From sequence record NC_133119.1: 64,000 nucleotides of DNA; one strand, written 5' to 3'. The notes beneath the pieces are model-generated. The model ran no database searches. It was not told the origin of the DNA and saw nothing but the letters and a program-made list of their open reading frames with translations. Made by a program: the position numbers and the translations under genes. The DNA is from Escherichia phage EscoHU1. The stretch's first letter is position 1. Every line of letters starts with the position of its first letter. Below are positions 30,381 to 60,302 of the stretch, in pieces.

Positions 30381-30470
30381 TGGCGGAAGAAGAGAGATTC
30401 GAACTCTCAAGCCGTTTTACCAGTCAGCCACTTTCCAAGCGGTTTTCGTCACCTATCGATTTGCTCTTCC
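30381..30470 (-). tRNA. tRNA-Ser (GGA), tentative
   Basis: 90 nt, T-arm GAGAGTTCGAATCTCTC, G73, CCA; loop TTGGAAA; D-arm atypical. Confidence 0.55.
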
Positions 30471-30644
30471 GTAGATCTCAGGATTAAATCATAAACTTCA
30501 TTAGCGGATACTGGAAGTATGAGATTATACATCTTTTGGTCATACCTCTGACCATACTCTATAAACACATACTCTTTAGTTAATGTATTAACAGCTAACC
30601 AGATATCAGTTATAGGAGTTTTCATCATGAGTTAATCCAATGTT

Positions 30645-30725
30645 TGGTAGGGATGGAGGGACTCGAACCCACACCCGAAGACTAGAACCTAAATCTAGCG
30701 CGTCTGCCAATTTCGCCACATCCCC
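30645..30725 (-). tRNA. tRNA-Leu (UAG)
   Basis: Leu-type D-arm GCGAAATTGGCAGACGC; stem CTAGA/TCTAG, loop TTTAGGT. Confidence 0.7.
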
Positions 30726-30732
30726 ATTTTAT

Positions 30733-30951
30733 TTAGTTAGAAATAAATAGTAACCCTGCAACAATGGAACCTATGCCACTGAATACCATTATCAGCATAG
30801 CTTCTAAGCTGATAAAGCGGACGTTATATGGAGCGCCCCAAGAATAATCAGTAAAGAAAGTTTTCTTTTCTTTAGCTAAATCTTTAATAGTTCTAAAATA
30901 GATAGCTAGTGCTAAAGCTGCAAGAACTACAGAGGCTGCTAAGAATACCAT
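30733..30951 (-). CDS. small membrane protein
   Basis: 72 aa, two TM segments. Confidence 0.4.
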   Translation of the reverse strand: MVFLAASVVLAALALAIYFRTIKDLAKEKKTFFTDYSWGAPYNVRFISLEAMLIMVFSGIGSIVAGLLFISN

Positions 30952-30969
30952 ATTATTTCCTTAATTTGT

Positions 30970-31045
30970 TTGGTGGAGTCACTCAGAATTGAACTGAGTT
31001 CCACTGCTTGCAAGGCAGTAAGTTTAACCAAATAACCTATGACCC
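30970..31045 (-). tRNA. tRNA-Ala (UGC)
   Basis: G3:U70 pair, loop CTTGCAA, 3' end GACTCCACCA. Confidence 0.8.
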
Positions 31046-31050
31046 CGAAT

Positions 31051-31129
31051 TTGGTGGAGAATAAGAGATTCGAACTCTTCTGATATCCTCGGTGCAAGCG
31101 AGGTGTCCACTCCAAGCAGACCCATTCCC
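31051..31129 (-). tRNA. second tRNA with anticodon UGC (Ala-like, enlarged D-loop)
   Basis: 79 nt; G3:U70; loop CTTGCAC. Confidence 0.55.
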
Positions 31130-31392
31130 CAAAATCTTTAAGTTTACTAAGGCTATTAGCTCGGTGTGCGTATTACCCTCAGACATTAGCCAGTAGAGGA
31201 TAACCGCTCTTCACAAACCCGATACACTATTCAGTTGCCGCTGAATCTAGTGGACTAATCTAGAACTTATTGCAAAGTATCCCCCGCCATTAGGGGTCTA
31301 ATTGCAATTGTGCTTTTTGGCAGCCAGTCCTAGGTCGAGCTAATACCTTAGTGAACTTTGATGAGGATTTCTCCTCATCAATTTATATAAAT

Positions 31393-31421
31393 ATTATAAC
31401 AAGAAATTAAGCATCAAGCAA
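31393..31421 (-). promoter_or_regulatory. early sigma70 promoter (-35 TTGCTT, -10 TATAAT)
   Basis: 17-bp spacer. Confidence 0.7.
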
Positions 31422-31773
31422 GTACATTTTTAGCGATTTCTTGTAGTTCCTTAACGTCGCTAACGAAAAGGTAATCAGAGCTTCCAGAGTGCATACTCTG
31501 CATAACCACACCATCCTCTGGTGCATCTTCCTTCAAAGTAAGTCCTAACCAGAACTTGGCAAAACTAGGTGTTACCTCACCTTGACTTGCCTTGAACACA
31601 TCGCCTTCTGTGATCTCTTGACCAGTAGAGAGTCCCATGTACGGTACGTTCAGATCAATATCTTTGTAGAATTCAGCTAGATCTTGTTCGAAGTCCCAAC
31701 CTTTAGAGATAGCGAACTCCATTGTTACATGACCGAAATAGCCTTGAACCTTGCTTGATAATTGCATTTGCAA
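31414..31773 (-). CDS. hypothetical protein
   Basis: 119 aa ORF. Confidence 0.45.
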   Translation of the reverse strand: MQMQLSSKVQGYFGHVTMEFAISKGWDFEQDLAEFYKDIDLNVPYMGLSTGQEITEGDVFKASQGEVTPSFAKFWLGLTLKEDAPEDGVVMQSMHSGSSDYLFVSDVKELQEIAKNVLA

Positions 31774-31792
31774 TTCCTTATTTTGAGTTAAT

Positions 31793-31866
31793 TGGTACTC
31801 GGTGATAGAATCGAACTATCGCAACCGCCGTGTAAAGACGGGGTTCTCCCATTAAACTAACCGAGC
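31793..31866 (-). tRNA. tRNA-Val (UAC)
   Basis: Stem CCGTC/GGCGG, loop TTTACAC, CCA encoded. Confidence 0.7.
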
Positions 31867-31999
31867 AAAAGACGTCCTATAATATAGGCTTCAACTACAA
31901 ATTCACAGAAACCTGCTAAAAACATACCTATTGTAAAATCGGCAGAGAATACATAGGAATCTTTTATTTTCTGCTTCATTAAGTAAAACCAGATAGTCA

Positions 32000-32317
32000 T
32001 TAAAATCTCTCCATTCTAAAGCCAATGAAGTAAGGTGCATTACATGGAACATGCTTAAGATCTTTAAGAGTAATTTTACGTCCTAAGCGTCGTTCCATAC
32101 AAGTGAAACATAGAACAATATCTTTGGGCTGCTCTTTTCTTATCTGATCCCATACCCAATCTTCAACCATACACATTTCATGGTATTGTTCACAGTCTCG
32201 ACAATAATGACACTGATGTTCTGGTACTTTTTGATTTTTAATACACAGTTCAGTAAAGCGTTTTCCTGCTCTGCCAGACATTTCTGATATTGTTTCTAGA
32301 ACTTTGTTAATATTCAT
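32000..32317 (-). CDS. Cys-rich zinc-finger-like protein
   Basis: 105 aa; CHYCRDC and CFTC motifs. Confidence 0.45.
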   Translation of the reverse strand: MNINKVLETISEMSGRAGKRFTELCIKNQKVPEHQCHYCRDCEQYHEMCMVEDWVWDQIRKEQPKDIVLCFTCMERRLGRKITLKDLKHVPCNAPYFIGFRMERF

Positions 32318-32334
32318 AACAAATTCCTTTAAAT

Positions 32335-32412
32335 TGGTTGACCGTCTGGGATTCGAACCCAGAACCTACGAGGTAAAAGCTCGGTACTCTTATCCAGTTG
32401 AGTTAACGGTCA
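32335..32412 (-). tRNA. tRNA-Lys (UUU)
   Basis: Loop CTTTTAC; T-arm CTGGGTTCGAATCCCAG. Confidence 0.7.
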
Positions 32413-32600
32413 ATTTAATACATGTATACTTCTTTAATAGAGTAGACTTTCAAGTAAGGATGATTAATACCAAATTCCGCCATCACTTCGTTTTCATCTT
32501 TACCGTAGTGCGCTAGTGGATACTTCTTACGATCTTTGCTAGAACGTAAATCACTTACCTTTAAACGAAATAATTTCATTTCGAAATCCTTCTATTAAAT

Positions 32601-32678
32601 TGGAAGCGGGTGCAGGAATCGAACCTACCTCTTTCTAGCTTATGAGACTAGCGATCTCTACCAGAGATCTAACCCGCA
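32601..32678 (-). tRNA. tRNA, anticodon CAU (Met/fMet/Ile2), 1:72 mismatch
   Basis: Loop CTCATAA; acceptor position 1 unpaired. Confidence 0.6.
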
Positions 32679-32684
32679 ATTATT

Positions 32685-32761
32685 TGGTCTCCAATGAAGG
32701 ACTCGAACCTTCAACCCCACCGCCCCAAACGGTGTACTCTAGCCAATTGAGCTAATCGGAG
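32685..32761 (-). tRNA. tRNA-Pro (UGG)
   Basis: C1:G72, stem CACCG/CGGTG, loop TTTGGGG. Confidence 0.8.
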
Positions 32762-32793
32762 AATATTCTTTGTTAACTCACTTTATAAAATAT

Positions 32794-32822
32794 ATTATAC
32801 AGACATTTAAGTATAATAGCAA
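32794..32822 (-). promoter_or_regulatory. early sigma70 promoter (-35 TTGCTA, -10 TATAAT) preceding tRNA-Pro
   Basis: 17-bp spacer. Confidence 0.7.
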
Positions 32823-32978
32823 ATGAGTTTTTAATAAATTTACTTATTGCGTAGGCCACCTGGAGGGTTCAAGCCCCACGGCTGACAAAGAAGTTTGCGA
32901 GACTTCTCTTAAATGCCAGAATAGACCCGCCGATCTATCGGAACCTACTCGATAAGTAAACTTTCATTTACTTACTTA

Positions 32979-33365
32979 TTATGTGCTGTGTATTTCTCGA
33001 TGACAATTCGCACACACTAAAATACATTTCTGTAATTCTTCTCTCAGCTTATCCCTGGAAATACCAGAGGATCTGAATTGACTAATATTATAGTCTTTTG
33101 AGTTTTCATCAATATGATGAAAATCCAGAGCTTGTTTGCATTTATTATACCCACAAATAGAACATTCTAATATAGGGAAGTATTCTGCAATAATAGAATC
33201 AACAGTTTCACGTCTTTTTGCATTTTCGCTAATCTTACATGTTGGCTTCCACTTTTGTTTACCCGAGGGATATATTCCATTAGTATAGAAATATTCCTTG
33301 GTTAGTGGGTGTTCCACACCACAGTTTTTACAAAACTTGTATTCCATAGCTCCTCGAACAGTCAA
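32979..33365 (-). CDS. HNH homing endonuclease
   Basis: 128 aa; DFHHIDENSKDYN...CANCHREIH. Confidence 0.7.
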   Translation of the reverse strand: MTVRGAMEYKFCKNCGVEHPLTKEYFYTNGIYPSGKQKWKPTCKISENAKRRETVDSIIAEYFPILECSICGYNKCKQALDFHHIDENSKDYNISQFRSSGISRDKLREELQKCILVCANCHREIHST

Positions 33366-33483
33366 TCTAGGCAGGACTTGAACCTGCTATCACTTGTGCG
33401 GATTTACGAGAACCATTCTTTCACTCGAATCGAACGAGCTTCTACCCTCGGCAAGCTGGTGCCCCCTCTCCACCACGCTAGAA
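33366..33483 (-). other. tRNA-like element with two T-arm-like hairpins, no canonical cloverleaf
   Basis: GCAGGTTCAAGTCCTGC and GCTCGTTCGATTCGAGT on minus strand. Confidence 0.25.
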
Positions 33484-33491
33484 TGTTTATT

Positions 33492-33567
33492 TGGTACACC
33501 CACTAGGACTTGAACCTAGAACCCTCCGCTTAAGAGGCGGTAGCTCTAACCATTGAGCTATGGATGT
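33492..33567 (-). tRNA. tRNA-Lys (CUU), tentative
   Basis: D-stem GCTC/GAGC, loop CTCTTAA, A73. Confidence 0.55.
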
Positions 33568-33678
33568 ATATTAGTCCATTGTACATCTACAAAAGAAACC
33601 CCATTTACCGCAGTGTGGACACTGTCCTCCAGAGTTTCTAGCAAAGGATTTGAACTTCATTCAACACTCCTTTAAAGT

Positions 33679-33755
33679 TGGCGCGACCGATGGGATTCGA
33701 ACCCACATTCTCTCCCGTGACAGGGGAGTACCATTACCAAGCCAGCCCCGATCGC
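33679..33755 (-). tRNA. tRNA-Asp (GUC)
   Basis: Stem CTCCC/GGGAG, loop CTGTCAC, G73. Confidence 0.8.
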
Positions 33756-33764
33756 ATAATTTGT

Positions 33765-33950
33765 TTACTCAGCTTTGAGTTTTTCGATAGCTTCCTTAAC
33801 CTCTTTTAGAGCTTCACGACGTGCATTCTGTTGCTGCATATCTTGTATTAACGTCAGTTTTTGGTTTTCAATTTCTTGATCCCAGACCTTAATATTATTA
33901 ATTAGATTATCACGATCAGCTTCTAGTCGAGCAATTGCACGAGTTGTCAT
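33765..33950 (-). CDS. small coiled-coil protein
   Basis: 61 aa ORF. Confidence 0.4.
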   Translation of the reverse strand: MTTRAIARLEADRDNLINNIKVWDQEIENQKLTLIQDMQQQNARREALKEVKEAIEKLKAE

Positions 33951-33977
33951 ATCTATTTCCTCAGTTGTTAATGAAAT

Positions 33978-34060
33978 TGGCGGGCCGTGTAGGATTCGAA
34001 CCTACGTTGTCTTTCGACATGGATTAACAGTCCACCGCCAAACCGCTTGGCTAACGACCC
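33978..34060 (-). tRNA. tRNA-Asn (GUU) with 13-nt variable arm
   Basis: Anticodon arm TGGACTGTTAATCCA as E. coli tRNA-Asn; G73; 83 nt. Confidence 0.65.
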
Positions 34061-34067
34061 TAAAATT

Positions 34068-34143
34068 TGGACGACCGCATGAGATTCGAACTCACATAAG
34101 GAGGTTTTGCAGGCCTCCGCCTAAGCCATTCAGCCAACGGTCG
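34068..34143 (-). tRNA. tRNA-Cys (GCA)
   Basis: Loop CTGCAAA, U73, 3' end GTCGTCCA. Confidence 0.7.
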
Positions 34144-34321
34144 ATTTATCTTGTTTTTCGAGATCAACGAACTCTAAATCGTTGAAGTCTCCTAGAGTAC
34201 GGGAGTAATAACCGTCTCCAGCATCATAGCCTGATTTACCACACTTACACATCTTAAACTCACGTAGACGTGTAAAGATATGTTCAGAGCCACAACACTT
34301 AAATTTAACTAACTTTTTCAT
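34130..34321 (-). CDS. small zinc-ribbon-like protein
   Basis: 63 aa; CxGS...CKC; 3' end overlaps tRNA-Cys by about 14 nt. Confidence 0.35.
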   Translation of the reverse strand: MKKLVKFKCCGSEHIFTRLREFKMCKCGKSGYDAGDGYYSRTLGDFNDLEFVDLEKQDKSTVG

Positions 34322-34560
34322 CCAACACGCTCCGGTAAATCTTCGAGTTTATATTGAGTAGCCACATTAGCAGCATCTAGTAACAAACCCATATGTTTAA
34401 GAATTCTAGTGATAGCCTCGCCTTCTGCTTCTTCTACAAAGCAACGTAGTTGCATGAAGTCAATACCACCATCCATACCAGAGAAAATGTTAAGTAAGCG
34501 AAGCATTACCAGCTTACGTTCTTTTAATTCTTGTTCTGTCATGTTGCTTCTCCAGTTCAA
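34318..34560 (-). CDS. hypothetical protein
   Basis: 80 aa ORF. Confidence 0.4.
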   Translation of the reverse strand: MNWRSNMTEQELKERKLVMLRLLNIFSGMDGGIDFMQLRCFVEEAEGEAITRILKHMGLLLDAANVATQYKLEDLPERVG

Positions 34561-34571
34561 TTTATGTAATA

Positions 34572-34600
34572 ATTATACAGAACTTTAAGCGGTTAAGCAA
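34572..34600 (-). promoter_or_regulatory. early sigma70 promoter (-35 TTGCTT, -10 TATAAT)
   Basis: 17-bp spacer. Confidence 0.7.
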
Positions 34601-34880
34601 CTACATTTTTCAGAAATATGATGCCTTTCTTTTTCTTCTTATATTTCCATGTTAATGGATTCTGTCGATTATGAACGCTTGAGATCTTTGTCTCGTCAAA
34701 GTTCTTCAGTACCATGTAATCACAGGCCAACTGTTCCAGTGGGATGTGATCTCCGTCAAAAGCATAAACATAAGGCTGTTGACTGGCACGATAATGATAT
34801 ACTTTGTTAATTCTGCGTTTCAGTGACTTATCCGCACAGTAAATAAAGAAGTTTTCAGGATGCATCAGCATCTCCTTCAA
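34593..34880 (-). CDS. hypothetical protein
   Basis: 95 aa ORF. Confidence 0.4.
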   Translation of the reverse strand: MKEMLMHPENFFIYCADKSLKRRINKVYHYRASQQPYVYAFDGDHIPLEQLACDYMVLKNFDETKISSVHNRQNPLTWKYKKKKKGIIFLKNVVA

Positions 34881-34882
34881 AT

Positions 34883-34957
34883 TGGTGCACCCCGTTGGTA
34901 ACGATCCAACCTCTCAAGCTCTTCAGGCAAGCGCTAATCCATCTCAGCTAAAGGTGC
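34883..34957 (-). tRNA. tRNA-Phe-like (GAA), two U-U mismatches in anticodon stem, non-canonical T-loop
   Basis: Acceptor GCACCTT/GGGGTGC + ACCA; loop CTGAAGA; T-loop ATCGTTA. Confidence 0.5.
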
Positions 34958-34963
34958 AAATAT

Positions 34964-35043
34964 TGGCAAACCTACTAGGACTCGAACCTAGACCGTACGG
35001 TTTTGGAGACCGACATGCTGTCCAGTAACACTCTAGGGATGCA
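34964..35043 (-). tRNA. tRNA-Trp-like (CCA), 5' acceptor strand does not pair
   Basis: TCGGTCTCCAAAACCGT arm, T-arm, G73-CCA like E. coli tRNA-Trp; 5' half aberrant. Confidence 0.4.
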
Positions 35044-35048
35044 GAAAT

Positions 35049-35125
35049 TGGCGTCCTGTGCGGGGATCGAACCCGCAAATCCTACCTTGAAAGGGTAGTG
35101 ACTTTACCAGTTTGTCTAACAGGAC
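35049..35125 (-). tRNA. tRNA-Glu (UUC)
   Basis: GTCCTGT...ACAGGACGCCA ends, loop CTTTCAA. Confidence 0.8.
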
Positions 35126-35132
35126 TTAAATT

Positions 35133-35223
35133 TGGTGTTGGATGATGGAGTCGAACCACCCGAGACCCTTCCGAGTCGGCAGATTTACAGTCTGCTTCGC
35201 TACCTCTACGATACTAATCCAAC
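35133..35223 (-). tRNA. tRNA-Tyr (GUA)
   Basis: 91 nt; anticodon arm GCAGACTGTAAATCTGC identical to E. coli tRNA-Tyr. Confidence 0.85.
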
Positions 35224-35348
35224 ATATTTGAATGAAAAGTAAGTCGGTTAAACTCAAGGTGGAATATTTCAGGAAATCCTGACTTTACCCCTAAAAGCAA
35301 CTCGCTTAGTTACTTCTCATTCAGATATGTTTTCCAAATTAGATAACT

Positions 35349-35377
35349 ATTATACCAAGTTTTGAAGGACTGAGCAA
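35349..35377 (-). promoter_or_regulatory. early sigma70 promoter (-35 TTGCTC, -10 TATAAT) preceding tRNA-Tyr
   Basis: 17-bp spacer. Confidence 0.6.
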
Positions 35378-35413
35378 GTCAAATTTTAAAGAACTTGCTC
35401 AGTGCTATATCAG

Positions 35414-35689
35414 TTACTCGAAGCTAGGAGTGACACTCAGTTTGAATGGAAGCTCGAACACTTCTTCATAATCATCATTGAGCGTAATTACACGACCTTC
35501 TAGCTTAGTCATGGTGATTTCGATATCAGCCCTTGCATCAGGAGCCATACCAGCTTCCACACATTTAGCTTTGACTTCCGGCAGAAGTTCTACATCGTAG
35601 AAATAAAGCCATTCAATCTCACCCTCCCAGCCACCCCAGGATTTACAAACAGCACTTTCAACACCAGTTGCAGTAACACGTTTTGACAT
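35414..35689 (-). CDS. hypothetical acidic protein
   Basis: 91 aa ORF. Confidence 0.45.
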   Translation of the reverse strand: MSKRVTATGVESAVCKSWGGWEGEIEWLYFYDVELLPEVKAKCVEAGMAPDARADIEITMTKLEGRVITLNDDYEEVFELPFKLSVTPSFE

Positions 35690-35719
35690 TCGTTAACCCC
35701 TTCATCAATTTATATAACT

Positions 35720-35749
35720 ATTATATCAGAAATCTTAAGTAAAAAGCAA
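35720..35749 (-). promoter_or_regulatory. early sigma70 promoter (-35 TTGCTT, 18 bp, -10 TATAAT)
   Basis: Hexamers read on minus strand. Confidence 0.65.
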
Positions 35750-35779
35750 GTACATTTTTAAAATTTCTGCTTGGAGGAG

Positions 35780-36052
35780 TTAAACTCCTGATTCTTCAGC
35801 CAGATCAAGCCCAACCAACGTGATTGCCATAATAGCTGCGCCATGTTCTTTCTCTCCTAGCTCTTTGGCTTGAGTGAGAATATTGAGGAATTGCTTTTGA
35901 AAATCTGCAACTTCTTCTGTCATGCCTGCTTCAGCAATAATTCCTTTCAGCATAAAGCGTTGTGCTGTAATTTCAGGATTAGCCATTTGTTTTCTCCAGT
36001 TATTTAGAATGTAAGCCAAACTTAGGATCATAGCGATCGTAAGTCGTACCAT
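35780..36052 (-). CDS. hypothetical protein
   Basis: 90 aa ORF. Confidence 0.45.
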   Translation of the reverse strand: MVRLTIAMILSLAYILNNWRKQMANPEITAQRFMLKGIIAEAGMTEEVADFQKQFLNILTQAKELGEKEHGAAIMAITLVGLDLAEESGV

Positions 36053-36137
36053 TAGTTGAAGCCTTGATGCTATGAAAACGACAGTACATAAATTTACGTA
36101 GTGCTTTCTTAATAGCTTTCATTTTATTTCCTTAATT

Positions 36138-36214
36138 TGGTAGGGGTGGTGGGATTCGAACCCACAAAACCCGAATTTTAAGTCCGGTACCTATGCCAAT
36201 TCGATTACACCCCC
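36138..36214 (-). tRNA. tRNA with anticodon UAA (Leu by anticodon) in class-I frame
   Basis: 77 nt; stem CCGGA/TTCGG, loop CTTAAAA, 5-nt variable loop. Confidence 0.6.
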
Positions 36215-36223
36215 ATGTAATCT

Positions 36224-36571
36224 TTAGAGTTCGTAACCCTGAATATATCGAGCAAAACCAGTAATCTCGAACTGAATTGCCCATGCTACTTCCATATGCT
36301 CAATCTTACTAAAATGAGCGTCAGACTGTTCTAGGAAATAACGAGAGATTATAGGGAACTCAATGTCAAAATCTTCCTTATCCATACCATAGAAGAAGTT
36401 TCCAGAAATATTACGAACTTCACGAAAGAAATCCTCAATCTGAAAATCCATCAGAGGATAAGTATATTCCTCTTTGCTATCATCCGTTTGGAAGAAGCGG
36501 AAATGCACAAGGCAAGAGCCAATCAGATTTACTGCTGGAGTAGTGTAAATATCCATGTTAACCTCGATCAA
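36224..36571 (-). CDS. hypothetical acidic protein
   Basis: 115 aa ORF. Confidence 0.45.
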   Translation of the reverse strand: MIEVNMDIYTTPAVNLIGSCLVHFRFFQTDDSKEEYTYPLMDFQIEDFFREVRNISGNFFYGMDKEDFDIEFPIISRYFLEQSDAHFSKIEHMEVAWAIQFEITGFARYIQGYEL

Positions 36572-36743
36572 TATCTAGAGAAATTCCAAATTCTGGATTA
36601 ATACCAGAACCATTACATGCTGCACATTCCCACTCTTCAAAACGCATATCGCCAGGTTCAGCATCATTAATAGTACCTGTTCCATGGCAGTGAGCACACA
36701 TGCACTCTTCTAGTTCTTGTTTAAGCTCTTGAAACTTAGACAT
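36558..36743 (-). CDS. small Cys-rich protein
   Basis: 61 aa; CAHCHGTG...CAACNGSG. Confidence 0.4.
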   Translation of the reverse strand: MSKFQELKQELEECMCAHCHGTGTINDAEPGDMRFEEWECAACNGSGINPEFGISLDIDRG

Positions 36744-36760
36744 ATAGTCTCCTAGTTAAT

Positions 36761-36838
36761 TGGTGGCTCCCGGAGGATTCGAACCTACCTACCTTTCGCT
36801 TATGAGGCGACGGCTCATACCAAATGAGCTTGAGAACC
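36761..36838 (-). tRNA. tRNA, anticodon CAU (third CAU species)
   Basis: Acceptor GGTTCTC/GGGAGCC, loop CTCATAA, CCA encoded. Confidence 0.65.
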
Positions 36839-36843
36839 AAATT

Positions 36844-36915
36844 TGGAGGAAGATGCCAGACTCGAACTGGCACACCGTGTCTCCACAGCTACTGGCTGTT
36901 TAGCAAACAGCTCCC
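36844..36915 (-). other. tRNA-like element (T-arm, acceptor, CCA) with truncated anticodon region
   Basis: GCCAGTTCGAGTCTGGC + ATCTTCC-T-CCA; only about 16 nt between D-arm and T-arm. Confidence 0.3.
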
Positions 36916-36951
36916 TTACCTTTAGGGTTAATCTTCCAAATTTATGAATAT

Positions 36952-36980
36952 ATTATATTAGAAATTTAGCTTCATGGCAA
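36952..36980 (-). promoter_or_regulatory. early sigma70 promoter (-35 TTGCCA, -10 TATAAT)
   Basis: 17-bp spacer; overlaps stop of upstream gene. Confidence 0.6.
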
Positions 36981-37431
36981 GAAAATTTTTCAAGTTTTCT
37001 GTATTCATTTCATCTAAATCCATGAGGGAAGTAAACCCATTTAGTTTTTTAGCAAACTTCTCACCAGCAGAATCATTATCGCCTACGGCTACTACTTTAA
37101 AAGGTTGTAATTTTAGCTGCTTTAGCAATGCTTTGCTAGGGGAAGATCCTAGCATTGCTAGTGCGGGATATCCCGCGTTGTGTAGTGCCACAGCTTTAAA
37201 TACAGATTCTGCAACTAATACTAGGTCTTCATTACCTGTAAGAGTTTCTAAACCCCATAGACATTGAGTAGAAGAATGCGTAAAATATTTAGCTTCAGAA
37301 GGACATTTTCCATGACCTTTAGCTGCACTAGGGTTATATGTTTGATATCCACGTAACATGCCAGAGAAATCATACAGTGGAACTGTTAACCATCCATGTG
37401 GAGAGCCAACAGTGATACTTACCACTATCAA
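36958..37431 (-). CDS. hypothetical protein (possible Toprim-like fold)
   Basis: 157 aa; LVLVAESV...VVAVGDNDSAGEKF. Confidence 0.4.
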   Translation of the reverse strand: MIVVSITVGSPHGWLTVPLYDFSGMLRGYQTYNPSAAKGHGKCPSEAKYFTHSSTQCLWGLETLTGNEDLVLVAESVFKAVALHNAGYPALAMLGSSPSKALLKQLKLQPFKVVAVGDNDSAGEKFAKKLNGFTSLMDLDEMNTENLKNFLAMKLNF

Positions 37432-37505
37432 AGCCCCTAGATAAAAGATGTTGTTTTAACTCGTCAACAGTCATATATGACTCCTATCTATAATTTATAG
37501 AATAT

Positions 37506-37534
37506 ATTATATAGAAAATTTCGGCATTAAGCAA
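37506..37534 (-). promoter_or_regulatory. early sigma70 promoter (-35 TTGCTT, -10 TATAAT)
   Basis: 17-bp spacer. Confidence 0.7.
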
Positions 37535-37542
37535 GTGAAATT

Positions 37543-37839
37543 TTACTGAACACTGCACTGATACACTTGTTTGATACGTGTCACTGACTTCTTAGTTGGA
37601 TTGATAGAAGAACCTTGCCACCAACGTGATTCTGAGCTGAGAACAGCACCAGGAACAGCTTGTTCTTTTGGCAGAACAATATCAAAACATTGCTCACCCA
37701 TATTATCTTTAATGTGTGACCAAATATCCAAAGTAAATCGTTCTAACTTATTACAAACCTGAACTTGACAAAGTTCCTGTTGCGGAGCAGCAAATACAGA
37801 AGTAGATACTAGAGTCAATGCAAGTACAATGCGTTTCAT
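37543..37839 (-). CDS. secreted protein (signal peptide)
   Basis: 98 aa; MKRIVLALTLVSTSVFAAP. Confidence 0.45.
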   Translation of the reverse strand: MKRIVLALTLVSTSVFAAPQQELCQVQVCNKLERFTLDIWSHIKDNMGEQCFDIVLPKEQAVPGAVLSSESRWWQGSSINPTKKSVTRIKQVYQCSVQ

Positions 37840-37869
37840 GTTTGATTCCTCTCTCGAATTTATAAATAT

Positions 37870-37898
37870 ATTATACAGAAATTTTCTATATTAAGCAA
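37870..37898 (-). promoter_or_regulatory. early sigma70 promoter (-35 TTGCTT, -10 TATAAT)
   Basis: 17-bp spacer. Confidence 0.7.
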
Positions 37899-37916
37899 GT
37901 GAAAATTTCTGTATAA

Positions 37917-37937
37917 TAGCCCTCGCTTAGAGGGCTA
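37917..37937 (-). terminator. hairpin terminator (TAGCCCTC-GCTTA-GAGGGCTA)
   Basis: Directly after PnuC-like stop. Confidence 0.45.
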
Positions 37938-37945
37938 TAACTACT

Positions 37946-38638
37946 TTATTTGTTAACGCGTACAAAGTATCCTTTATAGGCTCCAAGAATGGAGTTACCT
38001 AAGAATACTAGCCACATTGCTAGGATTGCATAAGATGCACCTGTAGATTGAGCAGTTACAAGCCAAATGTATACAGTACCAATGTTAATAGCAATCCAGA
38101 TCAGCCATTGTTCAGCATATTGCTTGACCATAAGCCACATAGCAATCACACTACCAACCGCAGTAAATGCATCGAGCATCGGGAATGGATCAGCTGTAGT
38201 AGCAAGGAAGCTACCGTAACCTAAAGTAGCTACTGCTAGAACCCCTAGAGTCAGCAAAGCTTGGGCTTTAGTCAGAATCTTAGTTGGAACATCTGGCAGA
38301 TTACTTGGCTTATTTTTATGCCATAAGTACATTCCGTAGAACTGCATAGGAACGTAGTACAATAGGTTTAATGCTGCGTTACCATAAAGATCTGCATTTA
38401 AAGCTGTAATACCATAGGTAAGAACACCAACTAAGCCCCAAATATAGTTGGAAACGCGTCCTTTTGCAACCAAAATAACACAAACTACGTTGGTTATCGC
38501 AGTAGCCCAATCTAGAGGTGTACCATTATAGTTAGCTAAACTAATGAAGGCAACCGCTATGAACAGCCACAGATATTCCAGAGGTTTCCAGTTTTTAAAG
38601 TCATTTACGAGATAGTTAGTCATATTAAAACTCTCCAA
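37946..38638 (-). CDS. pnuC: nicotinamide riboside/NMN transporter PnuC-like
   Basis: 230 aa multi-TM; family resemblance (WLFIAVAFISL...YGMYLW). Confidence 0.65.
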   Translation of the reverse strand: MESFNMTNYLVNDFKNWKPLEYLWLFIAVAFISLANYNGTPLDWATAITNVVCVILVAKGRVSNYIWGLVGVLTYGITALNADLYGNAALNLLYYVPMQFYGMYLWHKNKPSNLPDVPTKILTKAQALLTLGVLAVATLGYGSFLATTADPFPMLDAFTAVGSVIAMWLMVKQYAEQWLIWIAINIGTVYIWLVTAQSTGASYAILAMWLVFLGNSILGAYKGYFVRVNK

Positions 38639-39680
38639 CGTTAAAGTGATGAATCAGCCAGTCTACTGCGTTTACTGCTTCGTCCATACGAACTTTGTAG
38701 TCCGGGGAGTCGATGTAAACAGTACGCCCTTCAGGGAACTGATTTGGAAATTCTTTCTTCATCTGCTCGAACAGTTCAGAAGTAATTGAACGATCGGAGT
38801 TAATACGTAAACCATCATCTACCCACTTGACAGTAGGCGCTAGAACAATTACTAAATCGTAATGTTCTTCTTTTGCAATTGCTGTAACCACAGGGTTCTT
38901 ACGATGTTCATAAAGTCTGTGGTAGAACTCAGTAATAAAAGCATTTGTATCCACAAACATGATCTTATTTGCAGTACGTTCTGCTTCAAATTCTAGCTCT
39001 TTGTGTCTGAACGCAATTTTACTATAATCTTCGCTGGTAAGCAGATTTTCGTTACCAACTAGATCAACTTCACAATACGTTCGGCCATATTCTTCTACCC
39101 ACGAAGTGTTGTATAGCTTCGCAAGGTATTTTGTTAAAGTAGTCTTTCCCGAGCTTTCAGTCCCAATGATTACAACCTTACGCACGTAATCTTTACGAAC
39201 TACGCTAGGAAGAAACTCCCAATACTTCATAAGATCATTACGAATCATTGTAGCTGAGATTGGAACACGAGTCCGATCAGAATCTACAATATAATGACCA
39301 AACTTCGGCAGATATTTCTTATATTCTGCATCATAGTCTAGTTCGCTAGAGAAAATGGTGATCTCAGGCAAATGTCCATAATTTTCATTAAGGATTCTAG
39401 CATATTCCGGCCAACCATTCGGATATTCAGGAATATCATCTTCAATAATGTACTCTACCGAAACGTGCTCAATATCCGCGTAAGTTTGTTCTAACCAACG
39501 AAGTCGATTCTTTAACTGTAATACTTCCTGATCACGTGTGTTCTGCTTATCCAGCCAACGATTATCATGACTAACTACAACAATAACTCGTTCACACATA
39601 GTTGCTGCTGTGTTTATTAGGTTAATATGACCACGCGTTAATGGTGCGAACTTACCAATTACTAGACCAGTCTTAATCAT
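38625..39680 (-). CDS. nadR: NadR-like bifunctional NMN adenylyltransferase / ribosylnicotinamide kinase
   Basis: GKFAPLTRGH nucleotidyltransferase motif + P-loop GTESSGKTT; start set at MIKTGLVIGKF after GAGG RBS. Confidence 0.7.
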   Translation of the reverse strand: MIKTGLVIGKFAPLTRGHINLINTAATMCERVIVVVSHDNRWLDKQNTRDQEVLQLKNRLRWLEQTYADIEHVSVEYIIEDDIPEYPNGWPEYARILNENYGHLPEITIFSSELDYDAEYKKYLPKFGHYIVDSDRTRVPISATMIRNDLMKYWEFLPSVVRKDYVRKVVIIGTESSGKTTLTKYLAKLYNTSWVEEYGRTYCEVDLVGNENLLTSEDYSKIAFRHKELEFEAERTANKIMFVDTNAFITEFYHRLYEHRKNPVVTAIAKEEHYDLVIVLAPTVKWVDDGLRINSDRSITSELFEQMKKEFPNQFPEGRTVYIDSPDYKVRMDEAVNAVDWLIHHFNVGEF

Positions 39681-39710
39681 ATTTGATTCCTCTCTCAAAT
39701 TTATAAATAT

Positions 39711-39739
39711 ATTATACAGAGAATTTAGCATTCAAGCAA
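39711..39739 (-). promoter_or_regulatory. early sigma70 promoter (-35 TTGCTT, -10 TATAAT)
   Basis: 17-bp spacer. Confidence 0.7.
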
Positions 39740-39855
39740 TCGAATTTTTTAACTTTTTAGAGGAAAATCGCAGGGCACTTAAGGGTAGCAGATGAGTGGT
39801 GAGGACCAGAAATTGTTACCCCAATAAAAATCCGGGGGCAATTTTTAAAGACCCC

Positions 39856-39884
39856 TTGACATTTTCGCTGGGATAGGATAAAGT
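39856..39884 (+). promoter_or_regulatory. candidate plus-strand promoter (-35 TTGACA, -10 TAAAGT)
   Basis: 17-bp spacer; -10 is weak. Confidence 0.3.
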
Positions 39885-39945
39885 ATATGTTATGGATGAG
39901 TGATCAAAGAGACACACATTTTCTATATACTAGGAGGTGTCAAAA

Positions 39946-40974
39946 ATGACAGAAGAAGTAGCTAAGAAACCTGAATCTCTAAGTGAAGTAGCAGCAGAAC
40001 TGCATCGTCACGAAGAATCAGACAAGAAAAAGTGGGAAAAGCTTAAAGCTCAAGAGCGAGCTGACGAGCATCATTATCATCATCACCATCATGAACACTA
40101 TGAGGAAGATGATGAAGACGACGAAGAAGAAGATGAACATGAACATCATGGTTATCACAAATATGGAGAAAGAAAAATGCAAGAACCAGTAAACGTATTC
40201 ACTAACGGCTTCCCTGGCCTGATGGGTGGTTACCCAGCTAACGCAGGTGCTTTCGGTGGAGAAGGTATGGGTCTATTCGGAGCTATCCTAATCGGTGCTC
40301 TATTAACAGGCGGATTCGGTGGATTTGGTGGATTTGGCGGACGTGGAGCAGGTGCTGTGGCTGAATTAACTGGTGTAGAAACTGTTCTGAGTAACCAAAA
40401 TACGTCAAGTATCCTATCTGCAATCAATACTGCTCGTACTGAAGCTAACCAGGGAACTGGTGCTGTTCTAAGCGCAGTAAATGGTGTAGGTGCTGCAGGT
40501 GCTGCTAGCACTCAGCAGATTCTGACTTCTCTGTACGGTACTGGTGCTAACCTGTCCAATCAGATCTGTCAGGAAACTCGTAGCGTTATTCAGGGTCAGT
40601 TTGACCTGTCTCGCCAGATCGATCAGTCCTTCGCGGCTAACCAGATCGCTCGTGCTCAAGACAAGTTTGATGCTGCTCAGATCGCTTTCCAGCAGACTAT
40701 TCAGACTAACAACCAGTTCGCTGCTGTAGCTGCACAGGCGTGCGCTAACCAGAACGCTCTGGAACGTCAGATCGCTGAATGTTGCTGTGAACTTCAGACT
40801 GCAATCGCTGGTGTAACTACTGCGCGTATTCAGGATGAATTAGATGAATGCCGTCTGCGTGAAGCAATCGCTGCAGGTAATGGTGCTAATGGTCAGGTAA
40901 TCAACCAAATCGCTGTAAGTCTTGGTGCTATCACTCAGACTCTAGCTGGTCTGCAGGCTAAACTGCCGGCTTAA
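39946..40974 (+). CDS. low-complexity protein: His/acidic-rich N-terminus, Gly-rich segment, Q/A-rich C-terminus
   Basis: AGGAGG RBS then ATG (track's GTG start at 39937 trimmed); HHYHHHHHEHYEEDDEDDEEEDEHEHH; GGFGGFGGFGG. Confidence 0.55.
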   Translation: MTEEVAKKPESLSEVAAELHRHEESDKKKWEKLKAQERADEHHYHHHHHEHYEEDDEDDEEEDEHEHHGYHKYGERKMQEPVNVFTNGFPGLMGGYPANAGAFGGEGMGLFGAILIGALLTGGFGGFGGFGGRGAGAVAELTGVETVLSNQNTSSILSAINTARTEANQGTGAVLSAVNGVGAAGAASTQQILTSLYGTGANLSNQICQETRSVIQGQFDLSRQIDQSFAANQIARAQDKFDAAQIAFQQTIQTNNQFAAVAAQACANQNALERQIAECCCELQTAIAGVTTARIQDELDECRLREAIAAGNGANGQVINQIAVSLGAITQTLAGLQAKLPA

Positions 40975-40996
40975 TAATTAAGGGGAGGAGCCCATT

Positions 40997-41431
40997 ATGA
41001 GTAAATATGGTTTTGTGAACAACGGATTTAATCAACAAATGGGCTCCCAGCAGCCCGTTCCGGGTCTAGATAACCCTTACTTACAACAGTTGCAACAGCG
41101 TTTGGCAGAAGCACAAAATATGCAACAGCAGTTCCAACAACCTGGAACTGCTAACCCTATGCAGATGATGCAACAGCAAATGGTAGGGCAGCCGCAAATG
41201 CCTCAACAAATGCAGCCTCAGATGCAGCAAATGCAACAAATGCCTCAACAGCAGCAAGTTCAACAACTCCAACATCCGCAGGTATCTGCGGAAGGACAGG
41301 CTGTTCTAGCCCTTTTCGAAGACTTCGCTAAAACAGAGGATGGGAAGCAACTTGTATCGCTTATGGGTAAGTTTAACAGCTTCTGTCAGAGTCAGGTTGC
41401 AAAAGCTCAGAATGGGGGTAATAACTCCTAA
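40997..41431 (+). CDS. Gln-rich protein
   Basis: 144 aa; GGAGG RBS; long Q/M/P repeats. Confidence 0.5.
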   Translation: MSKYGFVNNGFNQQMGSQQPVPGLDNPYLQQLQQRLAEAQNMQQQFQQPGTANPMQMMQQQMVGQPQMPQQMQPQMQQMQQMPQQQQVQQLQHPQVSAEGQAVLALFEDFAKTEDGKQLVSLMGKFNSFCQSQVAKAQNGGNNS

Positions 41432-41440
41432 GGAGAAATT

Positions 41441-41635
41441 ATGTGTTGTAGAAAACCTGTGTCATGCTGTCCTATGCCTGTAGCACGTTGTTGCTCTCCA
41501 GCAATGTTTACACAAATACCGGTGTTCAATCCCTTTGCCTTTAAGCCTACTCTTATCCTGCCCCCTAGAGTAGATTTTCAGTCAAGATTGGTCTCCCGTA
41601 TGGGTGGTTGCTGTACACCGAGAGTATGGTTCTAA
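41441..41635 (+). CDS. small Cys-rich protein
   Basis: 64 aa; AGGAG RBS; 9 Cys. Confidence 0.4.
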   Translation: MCCRKPVSCCPMPVARCCSPAMFTQIPVFNPFAFKPTLILPPRVDFQSRLVSRMGGCCTPRVWF

Positions 41636-41648
41636 ACCAAAAAACAAA

Positions 41649-41673
41649 AGCCCCTACGTCTTTTGACTAGGGG
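41649..41673. terminator. bidirectional rho-independent terminator
   Basis: GCCCCTA-loop-TAGGGGC with T-runs on both sides. Confidence 0.65.
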
Positions 41674-41682
41674 CTTTCTTGT

Positions 41683-42213
41683 TTATAAATTTAAGTAATC
41701 TAGAGAAGGTATCACACCATCAAATTCTTCTAGGATAGCAAACTCTCCAGCAAATTCTTTCCTCATTTCGTTAGCTTTTGCTATCGCACTTCCAAGATCT
41801 TCGTAACCAAAAGATCCTCCTGATCTTTTAATACCTTCCTTATCTCTTATTAATACTCTCCATTTTTGCCTGTTCTTCTCCCAGCATACATTAGCATACC
41901 CAGACTTAGACTTTAATTTCTTATTTCTTTGATTTTGAGAATCTGTAGATTCTCTTAGATTGTCCCATGCATTATTATTTCTAATCCTATCTTTATGATC
42001 GACCATGCTAGGTAGGTATCCTTTTACATAAAGGAATGCTAGAACATGGGCTAAGTACATTTTTCCAGAGATCTGAATTCTGATATATCCATCAGATGTT
42101 AGGCTTCCCGCAATGCTGCCGGCCTTCTTGTTTCCTCTACTAACCTTATATGTAAACAATCCAGTTTCTTGATCATAGTCAAAAAGCTCTTTCAATTTTT
42201 CTTGAGTTAACAT
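41683..42213 (-). CDS. HNH endonuclease with AP2-like DNA-binding domain
   Basis: 176 aa; YLAHVLAF...VDHKDRIRNNNAWDNLR; C-terminal GYANVCWEK...RSGGSFGYEDLGSAIAKANEMR. Confidence 0.7.
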   Translation of the reverse strand: MLTQEKLKELFDYDQETGLFTYKVSRGNKKAGSIAGSLTSDGYIRIQISGKMYLAHVLAFLYVKGYLPSMVDHKDRIRNNNAWDNLRESTDSQNQRNKKLKSKSGYANVCWEKNRQKWRVLIRDKEGIKRSGGSFGYEDLGSAIAKANEMRKEFAGEFAILEEFDGVIPSLDYLNL

Positions 42214-42287
42214 AAGTTCCTTAAATACAGAAAAGCCCTGCGCTCTCCAGGGAACGCAGGGCTTACTTCAGAGATTACATGCTGGTA

Positions 42288-43265: not shown

Positions 43266-43340
43266 TGGCCGAGGTGACAGGATTCGAACCTGCATAAAGG
43301 AATTTAGAAGACTCCTGCCTATCCCTTAGACTACACCCCG
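43266..43340 (-). tRNA. tRNA-Arg (UCU)
   Basis: Loop CTTCTAA, T-arm GCAGGTTCGAATCCTGT, G73-CCA. Confidence 0.75.
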
Positions 43341-59288: not shown

Positions 59289-59451
59289 TTTAGAAAATAT
59301 GCTTATGGAGCAGTGGAATGCTGGGTATAATGCTGGAGTAGCTACCTGTATTGCTGGTTTGGATATGCTTATTAAGCAAGAGAAGGTTCGCCCAGAAGAA
59401 GCAATTCTGCTCCAAAATATCATCGAAGGATTCAAGCAAGGAATCGTATAA
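59257..59451 (+). CDS. hypothetical protein
   Basis: GGAGG RBS then ATG; stop overlaps Sir2-like start. Confidence 0.4.
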   Translation: MDFLNQNLKSNLENMLMEQWNAGYNAGVATCIAGLDMLIKQEKVRPEEAILLQNIIEGFKQGIV

Positions 59452-60302
59452 TGCGTAGACTAATCGTTGTTAGTGGTGCAGGTTTGAGTGTAGATAGTGG
59501 TGTTCGTGCTTTCCGTACTGATACTGCTAGTGGGAAATCCTTGTGGGATGAGTACGATCTAGAGGAAGTATGTAGCTTGCCTAACTTTGAAGCTGGCTTC
59601 CGTCGCTTCTGTGGTGAAGATGACCCTAACTACTTCAGTGCTCGTTTCCCTGGCATTGATGAAGATGGTAACGATCTGTATCTCAAGACTCATGAGTTCT
59701 ACAACATGCGTCGTCAGGAATTACAGACTGTTGAGCCTAACATTGCCCATCTGCGAATTGCAGAATGGTTCCAGCGTTATGGTGCGGATAGCGTGAAGAA
59801 CTTCACTACTAACGTTGATGACCTTCTGGAACGTGCTGGTATCCCTCGTGATGAAATCATTCACGCTCACGGGTACTTGAAAGAGGTGATCTATCGTCAG
59901 GGTCGCAACCAAATCATCGAAGATGTTGGGTATACTGCGATTGCCCCTGAGGATTACGAATGGGTAAAACCAAACGTAACATTCTTTGGTGAGACGGCTC
60001 CGTGGTATATGGGTCAGATTAACCTGTTTGATACACTTACTAGCAATGATATGGTTATTGTAGTAGGTTGTAGCAACCAAGTAATCGACTTCAACTGGGA
60101 GCTATTTCCTGCTGTATGTCGTGGAACTAAGATGATGGTTGTTAACCCACAAGTTCGTTATGACGAACAGCTTGAGTATGAGAAACGTGGTGTTACTGTA
60201 TGGCGTGCTGGAGCTGCCGAAGTTTTTGGTAACAAACAATTCATTGGCCAAGTTGAAGCTTTTATGGAAGGAACTATTTATGCACCAGAAAAGCATAGGT
60301 GA
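59451..60302 (+). CDS. Sir2-like (sirtuin-family) NAD-dependent enzyme, no obvious zinc ribbon
   Basis: 283 aa; GAGLSVDSGVRAFR, TTNVDDLLERAG, HAHG, VTFFGE. Confidence 0.65.
   Translation: MRRLIVVSGAGLSVDSGVRAFRTDTASGKSLWDEYDLEEVCSLPNFEAGFRRFCGEDDPNYFSARFPGIDEDGNDLYLKTHEFYNMRRQELQTVEPNIAHLRIAEWFQRYGADSVKNFTTNVDDLLERAGIPRDEIIHAHGYLKEVIYRQGRNQIIEDVGYTAIAPEDYEWVKPNVTFFGETAPWYMGQINLFDTLTSNDMVIVVGCSNQVIDFNWELFPAVCRGTKMMVVNPQVRYDEQLEYEKRGVTVWRAGAAEVFGNKQFIGQVEAFMEGTIYAPEKHR

What the first reader, a model, noticed from the sequence alone, without database searches (positions are those of the whole stretch)
37946..39680. Phage-encoded NAD salvage pair (PnuC-like transporter + NadR-like NMNAT/NR kinase)
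PnuC-like and NadR-like genes are adjacent and co-oriented, with a Sir2-like gene elsewhere in the window. Together they imply the phage manipulates host NAD+ pools. One reading is a counter-measure to NAD+-depleting abortive-infection defences; another is supply for an NAD-consuming phage enzyme.
Basis: partly seen in the sequence, partly recalled or inferred. Interest (0 to 1): 0.55.

Follow-up and report, generated by a model that had tools for sequence, protein, structure and literature searches.

The report
Known phage NAD-rebuilding operon (NARP3)
This T5-like phage carries a two-gene unit that imports the vitamin precursor nicotinamide riboside and turns it into NAD+, and it is nearly identical to the published "NARP3" anti-defence system, so the finding is correct but already known.

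Summary
On the minus strand, 38625-39680 encodes a 351-aa NadR-like enzyme with NMN adenylyltransferase and ribosylnicotinamide kinase domains and no HTH domain. 37946-38623 encodes a 225-aa PnuC-like transporter. The genes are 1 nt apart, with one T5 early-type promoter upstream and one hairpin downstream.

The window is a T5-like phage of genus Epseptimavirus, about 96-97% identical to Salmonella phage Stitch. The two proteins are 99.4% and 97.8% identical to Bas30_86 and Bas30_87 of Escherichia phage TrudiRoth. Every residue mutagenised in that study is conserved.

Yan et al. (Sci Adv 2026, PMC13464706) named that pair NARP3. They showed NR import, NR->NMN->NAD+ conversion, and rescue of T7 and lambda from Sir2-HerA and DSR1 NAD+ depletion. 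Crystal structures are 9x6f and 9x6h. Osterman et al. predicted the operon in 2024, and at least 209 phage records carry it.

The link to the phage Sir2-like gene (59451-60302, real) is not supported: T5 has Sir2 and an NAD-dependent ligase but lacks this cassette.

New here:
- The cassette is a 2.1-kb insertion relative to T5, bounded by repeated promoter-leader elements.
- It includes a third gene for a conserved secreted 98-aa protein (phrog_6894) that sits next to NadR/PnuC in three phage lineages. The association is facultative.

The parts
38625..39680 (-). nadR-like gene: a 351-aa bifunctional NMN adenylyltransferase and ribosylnicotinamide kinase without the HTH domain. It is the orthologue of Bas30_86.
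   Evidence: TIGR01526 7e-81, PRK08099 3e-77 over profile positions 54-407 of 411, Pfam CTP_transf_like + AAA_28. It matches PDB 9x6f/9x6h at E=5e-241. It has 2 differences in 351 aa from TrudiRoth Bas30_86 (V73I, R260S). The motifs TRGH (15-18), ISATMIR (141-147) and Walker A GTESSGKT (173-180) are present, as are all 17 residues named in the paper's site descriptions or mutants.
37946..38623 (-). pnuC-like gene: a 225-aa nicotinamide riboside transporter. It is the orthologue of Bas30_87.
   Evidence: PF04973 1.9e-43, TIGR01528 1.1e-34, phrog_1880 3e-74. It matches 4QTN at 2.2e-32. It has 5 conservative differences in 225 aa from Bas30_87. The NR-binding residues N45, Q94 and N180 are conserved.
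39681..39757 (-). T5 early-type sigma-70 promoter plus leader for nadR-pnuC: -35 TTGCTT at 39739-39734, a 17-nt spacer, -10 TATAAT at 39716-39711, and a Shine-Dalgarno GAGAGAGGA at about 39696-39688.
   Evidence: Read from the sequence. The element is nearly identical to the region annotated as promoter P15a in T5, and blastn also matches it to the annotated P-N25 promoter. The function is inferred from the T5 annotation. The simple consensus scan did not list it, because the -35 matches only 3 of 6 positions.
37916..37938 (-). Hairpin directly after the pnuC stop codon, a putative terminator of the two-gene unit.
   Evidence: A 9-bp GC-rich stem folds at -17.1 kcal/mol, z=-4.5 against shuffles. 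The homologous site is annotated as a terminator in phage Stitch. The U-tract is weak, so terminator efficiency is uncertain.
37543..37839 (-). 98-aa secreted protein (phrog_6894, function unknown) with its own copy of the same promoter-leader (37840-37908). It was co-inserted with nadR-pnuC relative to T5 and is a possible accessory component.
   Evidence: It has a signal-peptide-like N-terminus and 4 invariant Cys, with no Pfam hit. T5 lacks it together with nadR-pnuC. Homologues lie next to NadR+PnuC genes that are only 34-40% identical to the window's, in three phage lineages: 10 of 28 small-protein loci and 9 of 35 NadR loci.
37471..37544 (-). Third copy of the promoter-leader element, upstream of the T5.076-like Toprim gene. 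It marks the left boundary of the 2.1-kb insertion (37545-39676) relative to T5.
   Evidence: In blastn against T5, window 36752-37544 and 39677-41680 abut in T5 at the P15a region. The three copies are aligned with T5 P15a.

Best explanation
The two genes are an orthologue of the published phage NARP3 system (NAD+ reconstitution pathway 3).

Proposed mechanism:
1. After second-step DNA transfer, host RNA polymerase transcribes nadR-pnuC from a strong T5 early-type promoter. This step is inferred.
2. The PnuC-like protein inserts into the inner membrane as a trimer and lets nicotinamide riboside (NR) in. This was shown for the 97.8%-identical Bas30_87.
3. The HTH-less NadR-like enzyme phosphorylates NR to NMN with ATP in its C-terminal P-loop kinase domain. 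This also traps NR in the cell. Its N-terminal HxGH nucleotidyltransferase domain then adenylates NMN to NAD+. This was shown for the 99.4%-identical Bas30_86.
4. The infected cell can therefore rebuild NAD+ from an external precursor, even while NADase effectors such as Sir2-HerA or DSR1 are destroying it, so phage replication continues. This was shown by heterologous expression and is inferred for this phage.

The cassette is an accessory module that is absent from T5 itself.
For: - Family assignments come from four libraries and from PDB.
- Identity to Bas30_86/87 is 99.4% and 97.8%. Every residue named in the published binding-site descriptions or mutants is conserved: PnuC N45, Q94, N180; NadR K10, F11, S37, E80, P84, G89, F110, S112, D115, V139, I141, K163, D164, R167, K168, E230, D275 (residues listed).
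- Both genes are under purifying selection against TrudiRoth: 13 synonymous vs 2 nonsynonymous codon differences in nadR, and 36 vs 5 in pnuC.
- The operon anatomy fits a single unit: a 1-nt gap, an internal SD, one promoter and one hairpin.
- Published biochemistry, crystal structures, NAD+ measurements, NR dose-dependence and plaque rescue are in PMC13464706.
- NadR-PnuC linkage holds in 33 of 35 phage loci.
- Presence or absence among T5-like phages is cassette-like, as expected for an accessory anti-defence gene set.
Against: - No experiment has been done in a T5-like phage. The NARP3 authors state that native context was not examined.
- NARP3 depends on exogenous NR, with an EC50 of about 4-6 uM in M9 medium, so its benefit in nature depends on precursor supply.
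- The NADase products ADPR and nicotinamide are not substrates, so the pathway does not recycle what the defence destroys.
- The host already has pnuC and nadR, so the phage copies may serve mainly to raise flux or escape NadR regulation. That is still the same mechanism.
- Promoter and terminator function are inferred from homology to annotated T5 features, not measured.
Confidence: 0.88

Rival explanations
1. The module is general NAD+ provisioning rather than counter-defence. It raises NAD+ to feed phage NAD-consuming enzymes (the split NAD-dependent DNA ligase and the Sir2-like protein), or to sustain metabolism after host shut-off, whether or not any host defence is present.
For: The phage lineage encodes a Sir2-like protein with intact sirtuin motifs. 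By synteny with Stitch it also encodes a split NAD-dependent DNA ligase just beyond the window. Iyer et al. list NadR among phage NAD-synthesis genes (PMC9503650).
Against: T5 has Sir2 (T5.102) and ligA/ligB but no nadR-pnuC, so those enzymes do not need the cassette. The cassette is not linked to either gene: it is 20 kb or more away, on the opposite strand. The only functional data show a phenotype specifically under NADase defence.
Confidence: 0.1
2. The genes are passenger genes of bacterial origin that are non-functional or neutral in this phage.
For: Bacterial homologues exist for both genes, and the cassette is dispensable for T5.
Against: The reading frames are intact and all catalytic and binding residues are conserved. 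Synonymous changes strongly outnumber nonsynonymous ones. The operon has a dedicated strong promoter. It is conserved in at least 209 phage records and is linked in 33 of 35 phage NadR loci.
Confidence: 0.02

Closest known systems
NARP3 of Escherichia phage TrudiRoth (Bas30_86/Bas30_87; Yan et al., Sci Adv 2026, PMC13464706; PDB 9x6f, 9x6h)
   Same: The gene order, lengths (351 and 225 aa) and 1-nt spacing are the same. Amino-acid identity is 99.4% and 97.8%, and all tested residues are identical. The downstream 98-aa gene is the same, and the phage genus is the same.
   Different: There are seven conservative substitutions in total. Upstream, this phage (like Stitch and T5) has the divergent T5.077-079-like genes and an HNH gene between nadR and the SPFH gene, whereas TrudiRoth has only about 260 bp there. 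Downstream, this phage also keeps a frameshifted T5.076-like Toprim gene.
Bacterial NadR and PnuC (E. coli/Salmonella NadR, H. influenzae NadR 1LW7, N. mucosa PnuC 4QTN)
   Same: The NMNAT and RNK domains and motifs are the same, as is the PnuC fold and family. From established knowledge of the bacterial NR salvage pathway, the logic is also the same: facilitated NR entry is pulled by phosphorylation.
   Different: The phage NadR lacks the N-terminal HTH repressor domain, as H. influenzae NadR does. It is far diverged from H. influenzae NadR (E=5e-55, against 5e-241 for Bas30_86). In the phage the genes are fused into one operon, whereas in E. coli they lie at separate loci.
NARP1 (Adps + Namat) and NARP2 (Nampt + NMNAT/Nudix) of Osterman et al. 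2024
   Same: They are two-gene phage modules that rebuild NAD+ to defeat NAD+-depleting defences.
   Different: The chemistry and substrates differ. NARP1 uses ADPR plus nicotinamide, and NARP2 uses nicotinamide plus PRPP. This module needs imported NR and includes a transporter. The proteins have no NARP1/2-type domains.

Membership tests
NARP3 (phage NadR-like + PnuC-like NAD+ reconstitution operon) | A PnuC-type NR transporter with the NR-coordinating residues N45, Q94 and N180 (Bas30_87 numbering) | tested here: met
   PF04973 at 1.9e-43. N45, Q94 and N180 are present at identical positions, with 97.8% identity to Bas30_87.
NARP3 (phage NadR-like + PnuC-like NAD+ reconstitution operon) | A truncated NadR with NMNAT and RNK domains and no HTH, with intact site-1 and site-2 residues | tested here: met
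   The PRK08099 match starts at profile position 54. All 17 residues named in the paper are conserved, with 99.4% identity to Bas30_86 and the 9x6f chain.
NARP3 (phage NadR-like + PnuC-like NAD+ reconstitution operon) | The two genes are adjacent, co-oriented and co-transcribed | tested here: met
   There is a 1-nt gap, an SD for pnuC inside the end of nadR, a single promoter-like element upstream and a hairpin downstream. Co-transcription itself is inferred.
NARP3 (phage NadR-like + PnuC-like NAD+ reconstitution operon) | NR import, NR->NMN->NAD+ catalysis, and rescue of phage from Sir2-HerA/DSR1 NAD+ depletion | not testable with these tools
   This was shown only for Bas30_86/87 expressed from plasmids. 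It is inferred here from near-identity.
Bacterial trifunctional NadR (PRK08099 equivalog) | An N-terminal HTH DNA-binding (repressor) domain in addition to NMNAT and RNK | tested here: not met
   The alignment covers profile positions 54-407 of 411 only, and no HTH Pfam domain is found. The protein is therefore a bifunctional NadR-like enzyme, not a transcriptional regulator, despite 'NadR transcriptional regulator' labels in several GenBank records.
PnuC family (PF04973 / TIGR01528) | A sequence match above the curated cut-offs and alignment to the solved PnuC structure | tested here: met
   148.9 bits against a cut-off of 27.3, and 120 bits against 42.45. The alignment to 4QTN covers residues 14-220.

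The most novel reading that the evidence does not exclude
In nature the NARP3 module may be tripartite in some phages. The 98-aa secreted, disulfide-bonded protein encoded just downstream (37543-37839, phrog_6894) would then be a periplasmic accessory factor for NR acquisition. It might capture NR, or promote or protect periplasmic conversion of NAD/NMN to NR.

The evidence for a link:
- It was inserted together with nadR-pnuC relative to T5.
- It lies directly beside NadR/PnuC genes that are only 34-40% identical to the window's in three unrelated phage lineages (T5-like, ~360-kb jumbo phages, Vequintavirinae), with a different gene order in the T5-like phages.

The published two-gene description would then be incomplete for nutrient-poor natural settings.

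Evidence against an obligate role:
- Two genes suffice in E. coli.
- Only 9 of 35 NadR loci and 10 of 28 small-protein loci show the association.
- Four further metagenomic contexts lack it.
- No fold or family match gives a functional clue.
Probability: 0.15. Interest if true: 0.45.

Novelty: already known. Interest (0 to 1): 0.15.

Why it matters
NAD+ depletion is a common end-point of bacterial anti-phage systems such as Sir2-HerA, DSR and Thoeris. Phage pathways that rebuild NAD+ partly determine which phages can overcome them, which matters for choosing and engineering therapeutic phages. For this window the value is confirmatory. It shows another Epseptimavirus-like T5-type phage carrying an intact NARP3. 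It also defines the cassette boundaries and its promoter. The main experiment still missing is deletion in a native T5-like phage. The recurrent small secreted neighbour is a cheap, testable add-on.

Tried and rejected
1. A functional link between the pair and the Sir2-like gene was rejected. T5 has Sir2 and an NAD-dependent ligase without the cassette, and the two are 20 kb apart on opposite strands.
2. The longer ORF starts were rejected: ATG 39731 for nadR and TTG 38638 for pnuC. The nadR start at 39731 lies just upstream of the -10 hexamer, so it would not be in a transcript from this promoter. Relatives annotate the starts at 39680 and 38623, each with an SD.
3. The idea that the 98-aa protein is an obligate third NARP3 component was rejected. 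It is present at only 9 of 35 NadR loci and is absent from four further metagenomic contexts.
5. The consensus promoter and terminator scan gave no enrichment over shuffles and missed the T5-type promoter. Homology to annotated T5 promoters was used instead.
6. Two literature look-ups using the term 'T5' failed because of the 3-character minimum.

Full report
**What is there.** The stated span holds two co-oriented minus-strand ORFs.
- The downstream ORF is 37946..38638. Its likely start is the ATG at 38623, giving 225 aa.
- It matches Pfam NMN_transporter PF04973 (E=1.9e-43), TIGR01528 PnuC (1.1e-34) and phrog_1880 'PnuC-like' (3e-74).
- It aligns over residues 14-220 to the solved Neisseria mucosa PnuC, 4QTN (2.2e-32).
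- The upstream ORF is 38625..39731. Its likely start is the ATG at 39680, giving 351 aa.
- It matches TIGR01526 (7e-81), the NadR equivalog PRK08099 (3e-77) and phrog_3462 (1e-153), and carries Pfam CTP_transf_like plus AAA_28 domains.
- The PRK08099 alignment begins at profile position 54 of 411, so the HTH repressor domain of enterobacterial NadR is missing.

**Operon anatomy.**
- The nadR stop codon and the pnuC ATG are 1 nt apart. A GGAGAG Shine-Dalgarno lies inside the end of nadR.
- Upstream of nadR lies TTGCTT, 17 nt, TATAAT, followed by ATAAATTTGAGAGAGGAATCAAAT-ATG.
- This element is nearly identical to the region annotated as promoter P15a in phage T5. Blastn also matches it to the annotated P-N25 promoter. 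It is therefore a T5 early-type sigma-70 promoter with its leader.
- Promoter function is inferred from the T5 annotation. The generic consensus scan missed it because the -35 matches only 3 of 6 positions.
- Directly after the pnuC stop codon a 9-bp GC-rich hairpin folds at -17.1 kcal/mol (z=-4.5). The homologous site is annotated as a terminator in phage Stitch.

**Which genome.**
- The window is the left 64 kb of a T5-like phage (Demerecviridae, Markadamsvirinae, Epseptimavirus-like).
- It is 96-97% identical to Salmonella phages Stitch, Seabear and Sw2 over 25 kb.
- It carries 28 tRNA genes.
- The two-gene query finds 209 phage records, 201 of them over at least 80% of its length. Nearly all are Salmonella or Escherichia T5-like phages, and most are already annotated as NMN adenylyltransferase/NadR plus PnuC.

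**It is a known, characterised system.**
- Against PDB sequences the NadR-like protein hits 9x6f/9x6h at E=5e-241. These are the crystal structures of Bas30_86 from Escherichia phage TrudiRoth.
- I fetched TrudiRoth (MZ501109) and compared directly. NadR-like has 2 differences in 351 aa (V73I, R260S; 99.4%). PnuC-like has 5 conservative differences in 225 aa (97.8%).
- Codon differences are mostly synonymous: 13 vs 2 in nadR, and 36 vs 5 in pnuC.
- Yan et al. (Sci Adv 2026, PMC13464706) named Bas30_86/87 'NARP3' and reported the following:
  - Bas30_87 is a trimeric NR-binding transporter. Its N45A, Q94A and N180A mutants lose function.
  - Bas30_86 converts NR to NMN to NAD+ with ATP.
  - They defined the RNK site 1 and NMNAT site 2 and tested mutants of them.
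  - The pair, but neither gene alone, restores NAD+/NADH and rescues T7 and lambda by 10^3-10^4-fold from Sir2-HerA. It also counters DSR1.
  - Rescue depends on NR dose, with an EC50 of about 4-6 uM.
- All of those residues are present at the same positions in the window proteins, together with the TRGH, ISATMIR and Walker A motifs.
- The operon had already been flagged as a probable third NAD+ reconstitution pathway in BASEL T5-like phages by Osterman et al. (bioRxiv 10.1101/2024.02.11.579819). Iyer et al. listed NadR among phage NAD-synthesis genes (PMC9503650).

**Mechanism, and what is shown versus inferred.**
- Shown for near-identical proteins: NR binding and import, two-step NR->NMN->NAD+ synthesis, restoration of NAD+ pools, and phage rescue under NADase defence.
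- Inferred here:
  - The window proteins do the same. This inference is very safe at 98-99% identity.
  - They are expressed early, from the P15a/PN25-type promoter.
  - Their selective role in this phage is counter-defence.
- The last point remains untested in any T5-like phage. The authors state they could not examine NARP3 in its native phage.

**The Sir2 link and the rival reading.**
- A Sir2-like gene exists at 59451..60302 on the + strand (PF02146 1.4e-21, phrog_2162). It keeps the CobB-like GAGxS, TxNxD and catalytic His motifs.
- By synteny with Stitch, a split NAD-dependent DNA ligase lies just beyond the window.
- However, T5 itself has Sir2 (T5.102) and ligA/ligB and has no nadR-pnuC. 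The NAD-using phage enzymes therefore do not depend on the cassette, and there is no physical or transcriptional linkage.
- I keep 'general NAD provisioning' as a minor rival (about 0.1). It is better seen as a possible side benefit.

**New anatomy from this analysis.**
- Blastn against T5 shows that window 36752-37544 and 39677-41680 are contiguous in T5.
- Window 37545-39676 (2.1 kb) is therefore an insertion relative to T5.
- The insertion reads, on the minus strand: [promoter-leader] nadR-pnuC hairpin [promoter-leader] 98-aa ORF.
- It is bounded by three copies of the same ~75-nt promoter-leader element, at 37471-37544, 37836-37908 and 39677-39757.
- This suggests the cassette was gained or lost by recombination between promoter repeats.
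- Neighbouring content is mosaic. Stitch and TrudiRoth lack the T5.076-like Toprim gene. TrudiRoth lacks the divergent T5.077-079-like genes. Only this window has an HNH gene at 41683-42213.

**The third gene.**
- The co-inserted 98-aa ORF (37543-37839) has a signal-peptide-like N-terminus and four invariant cysteines. It belongs to phrog_6894, of unknown function.
- It is well conserved, at 50-67% identity across very different phages.
- In 28 loci carrying it, 10 have NadR and PnuC homologues within 0-3.5 kb. Those homologues are only 34-40% identical to the window's.
- Conversely, 33 of 35 phage NadR loci have PnuC nearby, and 9 of 35 have the small gene immediately beside NadR.
- The 9 fall into three lineages: T5-like phages (order nadR-pnuC-small), ~355-371-kb jumbo phages, and ~146-kb Vequintavirinae such as GAP31 (order small-nadR...pnuC).
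- The association is facultative:
  - Many members of the same lineages lack it.
  - RaK2, Aeromonas-type phages and four metagenomic contigs carry the small gene without NadR/PnuC nearby.
  - Two genes suffice in E. coli.
- Function could not be assigned:
  - BFVD returns only a family member.
  - Pfam gives nothing.
- The NARP3 paper does not mention this gene.
- I rate a genuine functional link to NR salvage at about 0.15.

**Verdict.** It is an ordinary member of a known, named system, so interest is low. The remaining open points are the native-phage deletion experiment and the role, if any, of the small secreted neighbour.

Noticed in passing
window 37543-37839 (-); loci L007, L010, L011, L014, L015, L017-L019, L047-L054, L061: A conserved 98-aa secreted protein with four Cys (phrog_6894, no Pfam family, no fold match) was co-inserted with nadR-pnuC relative to T5. 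It lies directly beside distantly related NadR/PnuC genes in three phage lineages, but in only 9 of 35 NadR loci. The NARP3 paper does not mention it.
   Followed up: partly
window 36958-37474 (-): The T5.076-like Toprim ('DNA primase') gene is frameshifted near codon 25 relative to T5. The ATG at 37474 and the 157-aa ORF from 37431 are in different frames. This is either a pseudogene or a sequencing error. The gene is absent from Stitch and TrudiRoth.
   Followed up: partly
window 41683-42213 (-): An HNH_3 homing-endonuclease-like ORF (E=2e-13) fills a segment (41681-42219) that aligns to none of T5, Stitch or TrudiRoth. In T5 the equivalent spot holds a bidirectional terminator and a mapped single-strand interruption.
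   Followed up: partly
window 39937-41635 (+): Three genes are transcribed divergently from nadR, and their function is unknown. They are a 345-aa protein with a His/Asp/Glu-rich N-terminus and a Gly/Ala/Gln-rich body (phrog_8119), a 144-aa Gln-rich protein (phrog_7894) and a 64-aa Cys-rich ORF. They are homologues of T5.077-079 and are missing in TrudiRoth.
   Followed up: no
window 60582-61121 (+), 61124-61552 (+), 61562-61957 (+): The gene that RefSeq labels as a second 'Sir2 (NAD-dependent deacetylase)' in T5 and Stitch is, by Pfam, a HAD_SAK_2 domain protein (E=4e-19), so the label looks like a propagated mis-annotation. It is followed by two DUF7415 proteins, all just downstream of the true Sir2-like gene.
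   Followed up: partly
window 37471-37544, 37836-37908, 39677-39757 and other early-region sites: A ~75-nt T5 P15a/PN25-type promoter plus leader cassette (TTGCTT-17-TATAAT...ATAAATTTGAGAGAGGA) recurs in front of successive early genes and flanks the NARP3 insertion. These repeats are plausible substrates for cassette gain and loss by recombination.
   Followed up: partly
window 27922-36937 and 43266-43340 (-): There is a cluster of 28 tRNA genes interspersed with small ORFs, typical of T5-like early regions. It includes two tRNA-Ala(TGC), two tRNA-Gln and three tRNA-Met/Ile(CAT).
   Followed up: no
L016 6896-7390; L010 5746-6684: In an Aeromonas-phage-type locus the phrog_6894 homologue lies about 2.6 kb from an Acb1 (anti-CBASS) gene. 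In a ~371-kb jumbo phage an ADP-ribosylglycohydrolase gene lies about 3.3 kb upstream of the small-NadR-PnuC trio. The small gene therefore tends to sit in anti-defence or NAD/ADPr neighbourhoods.
   Followed up: no
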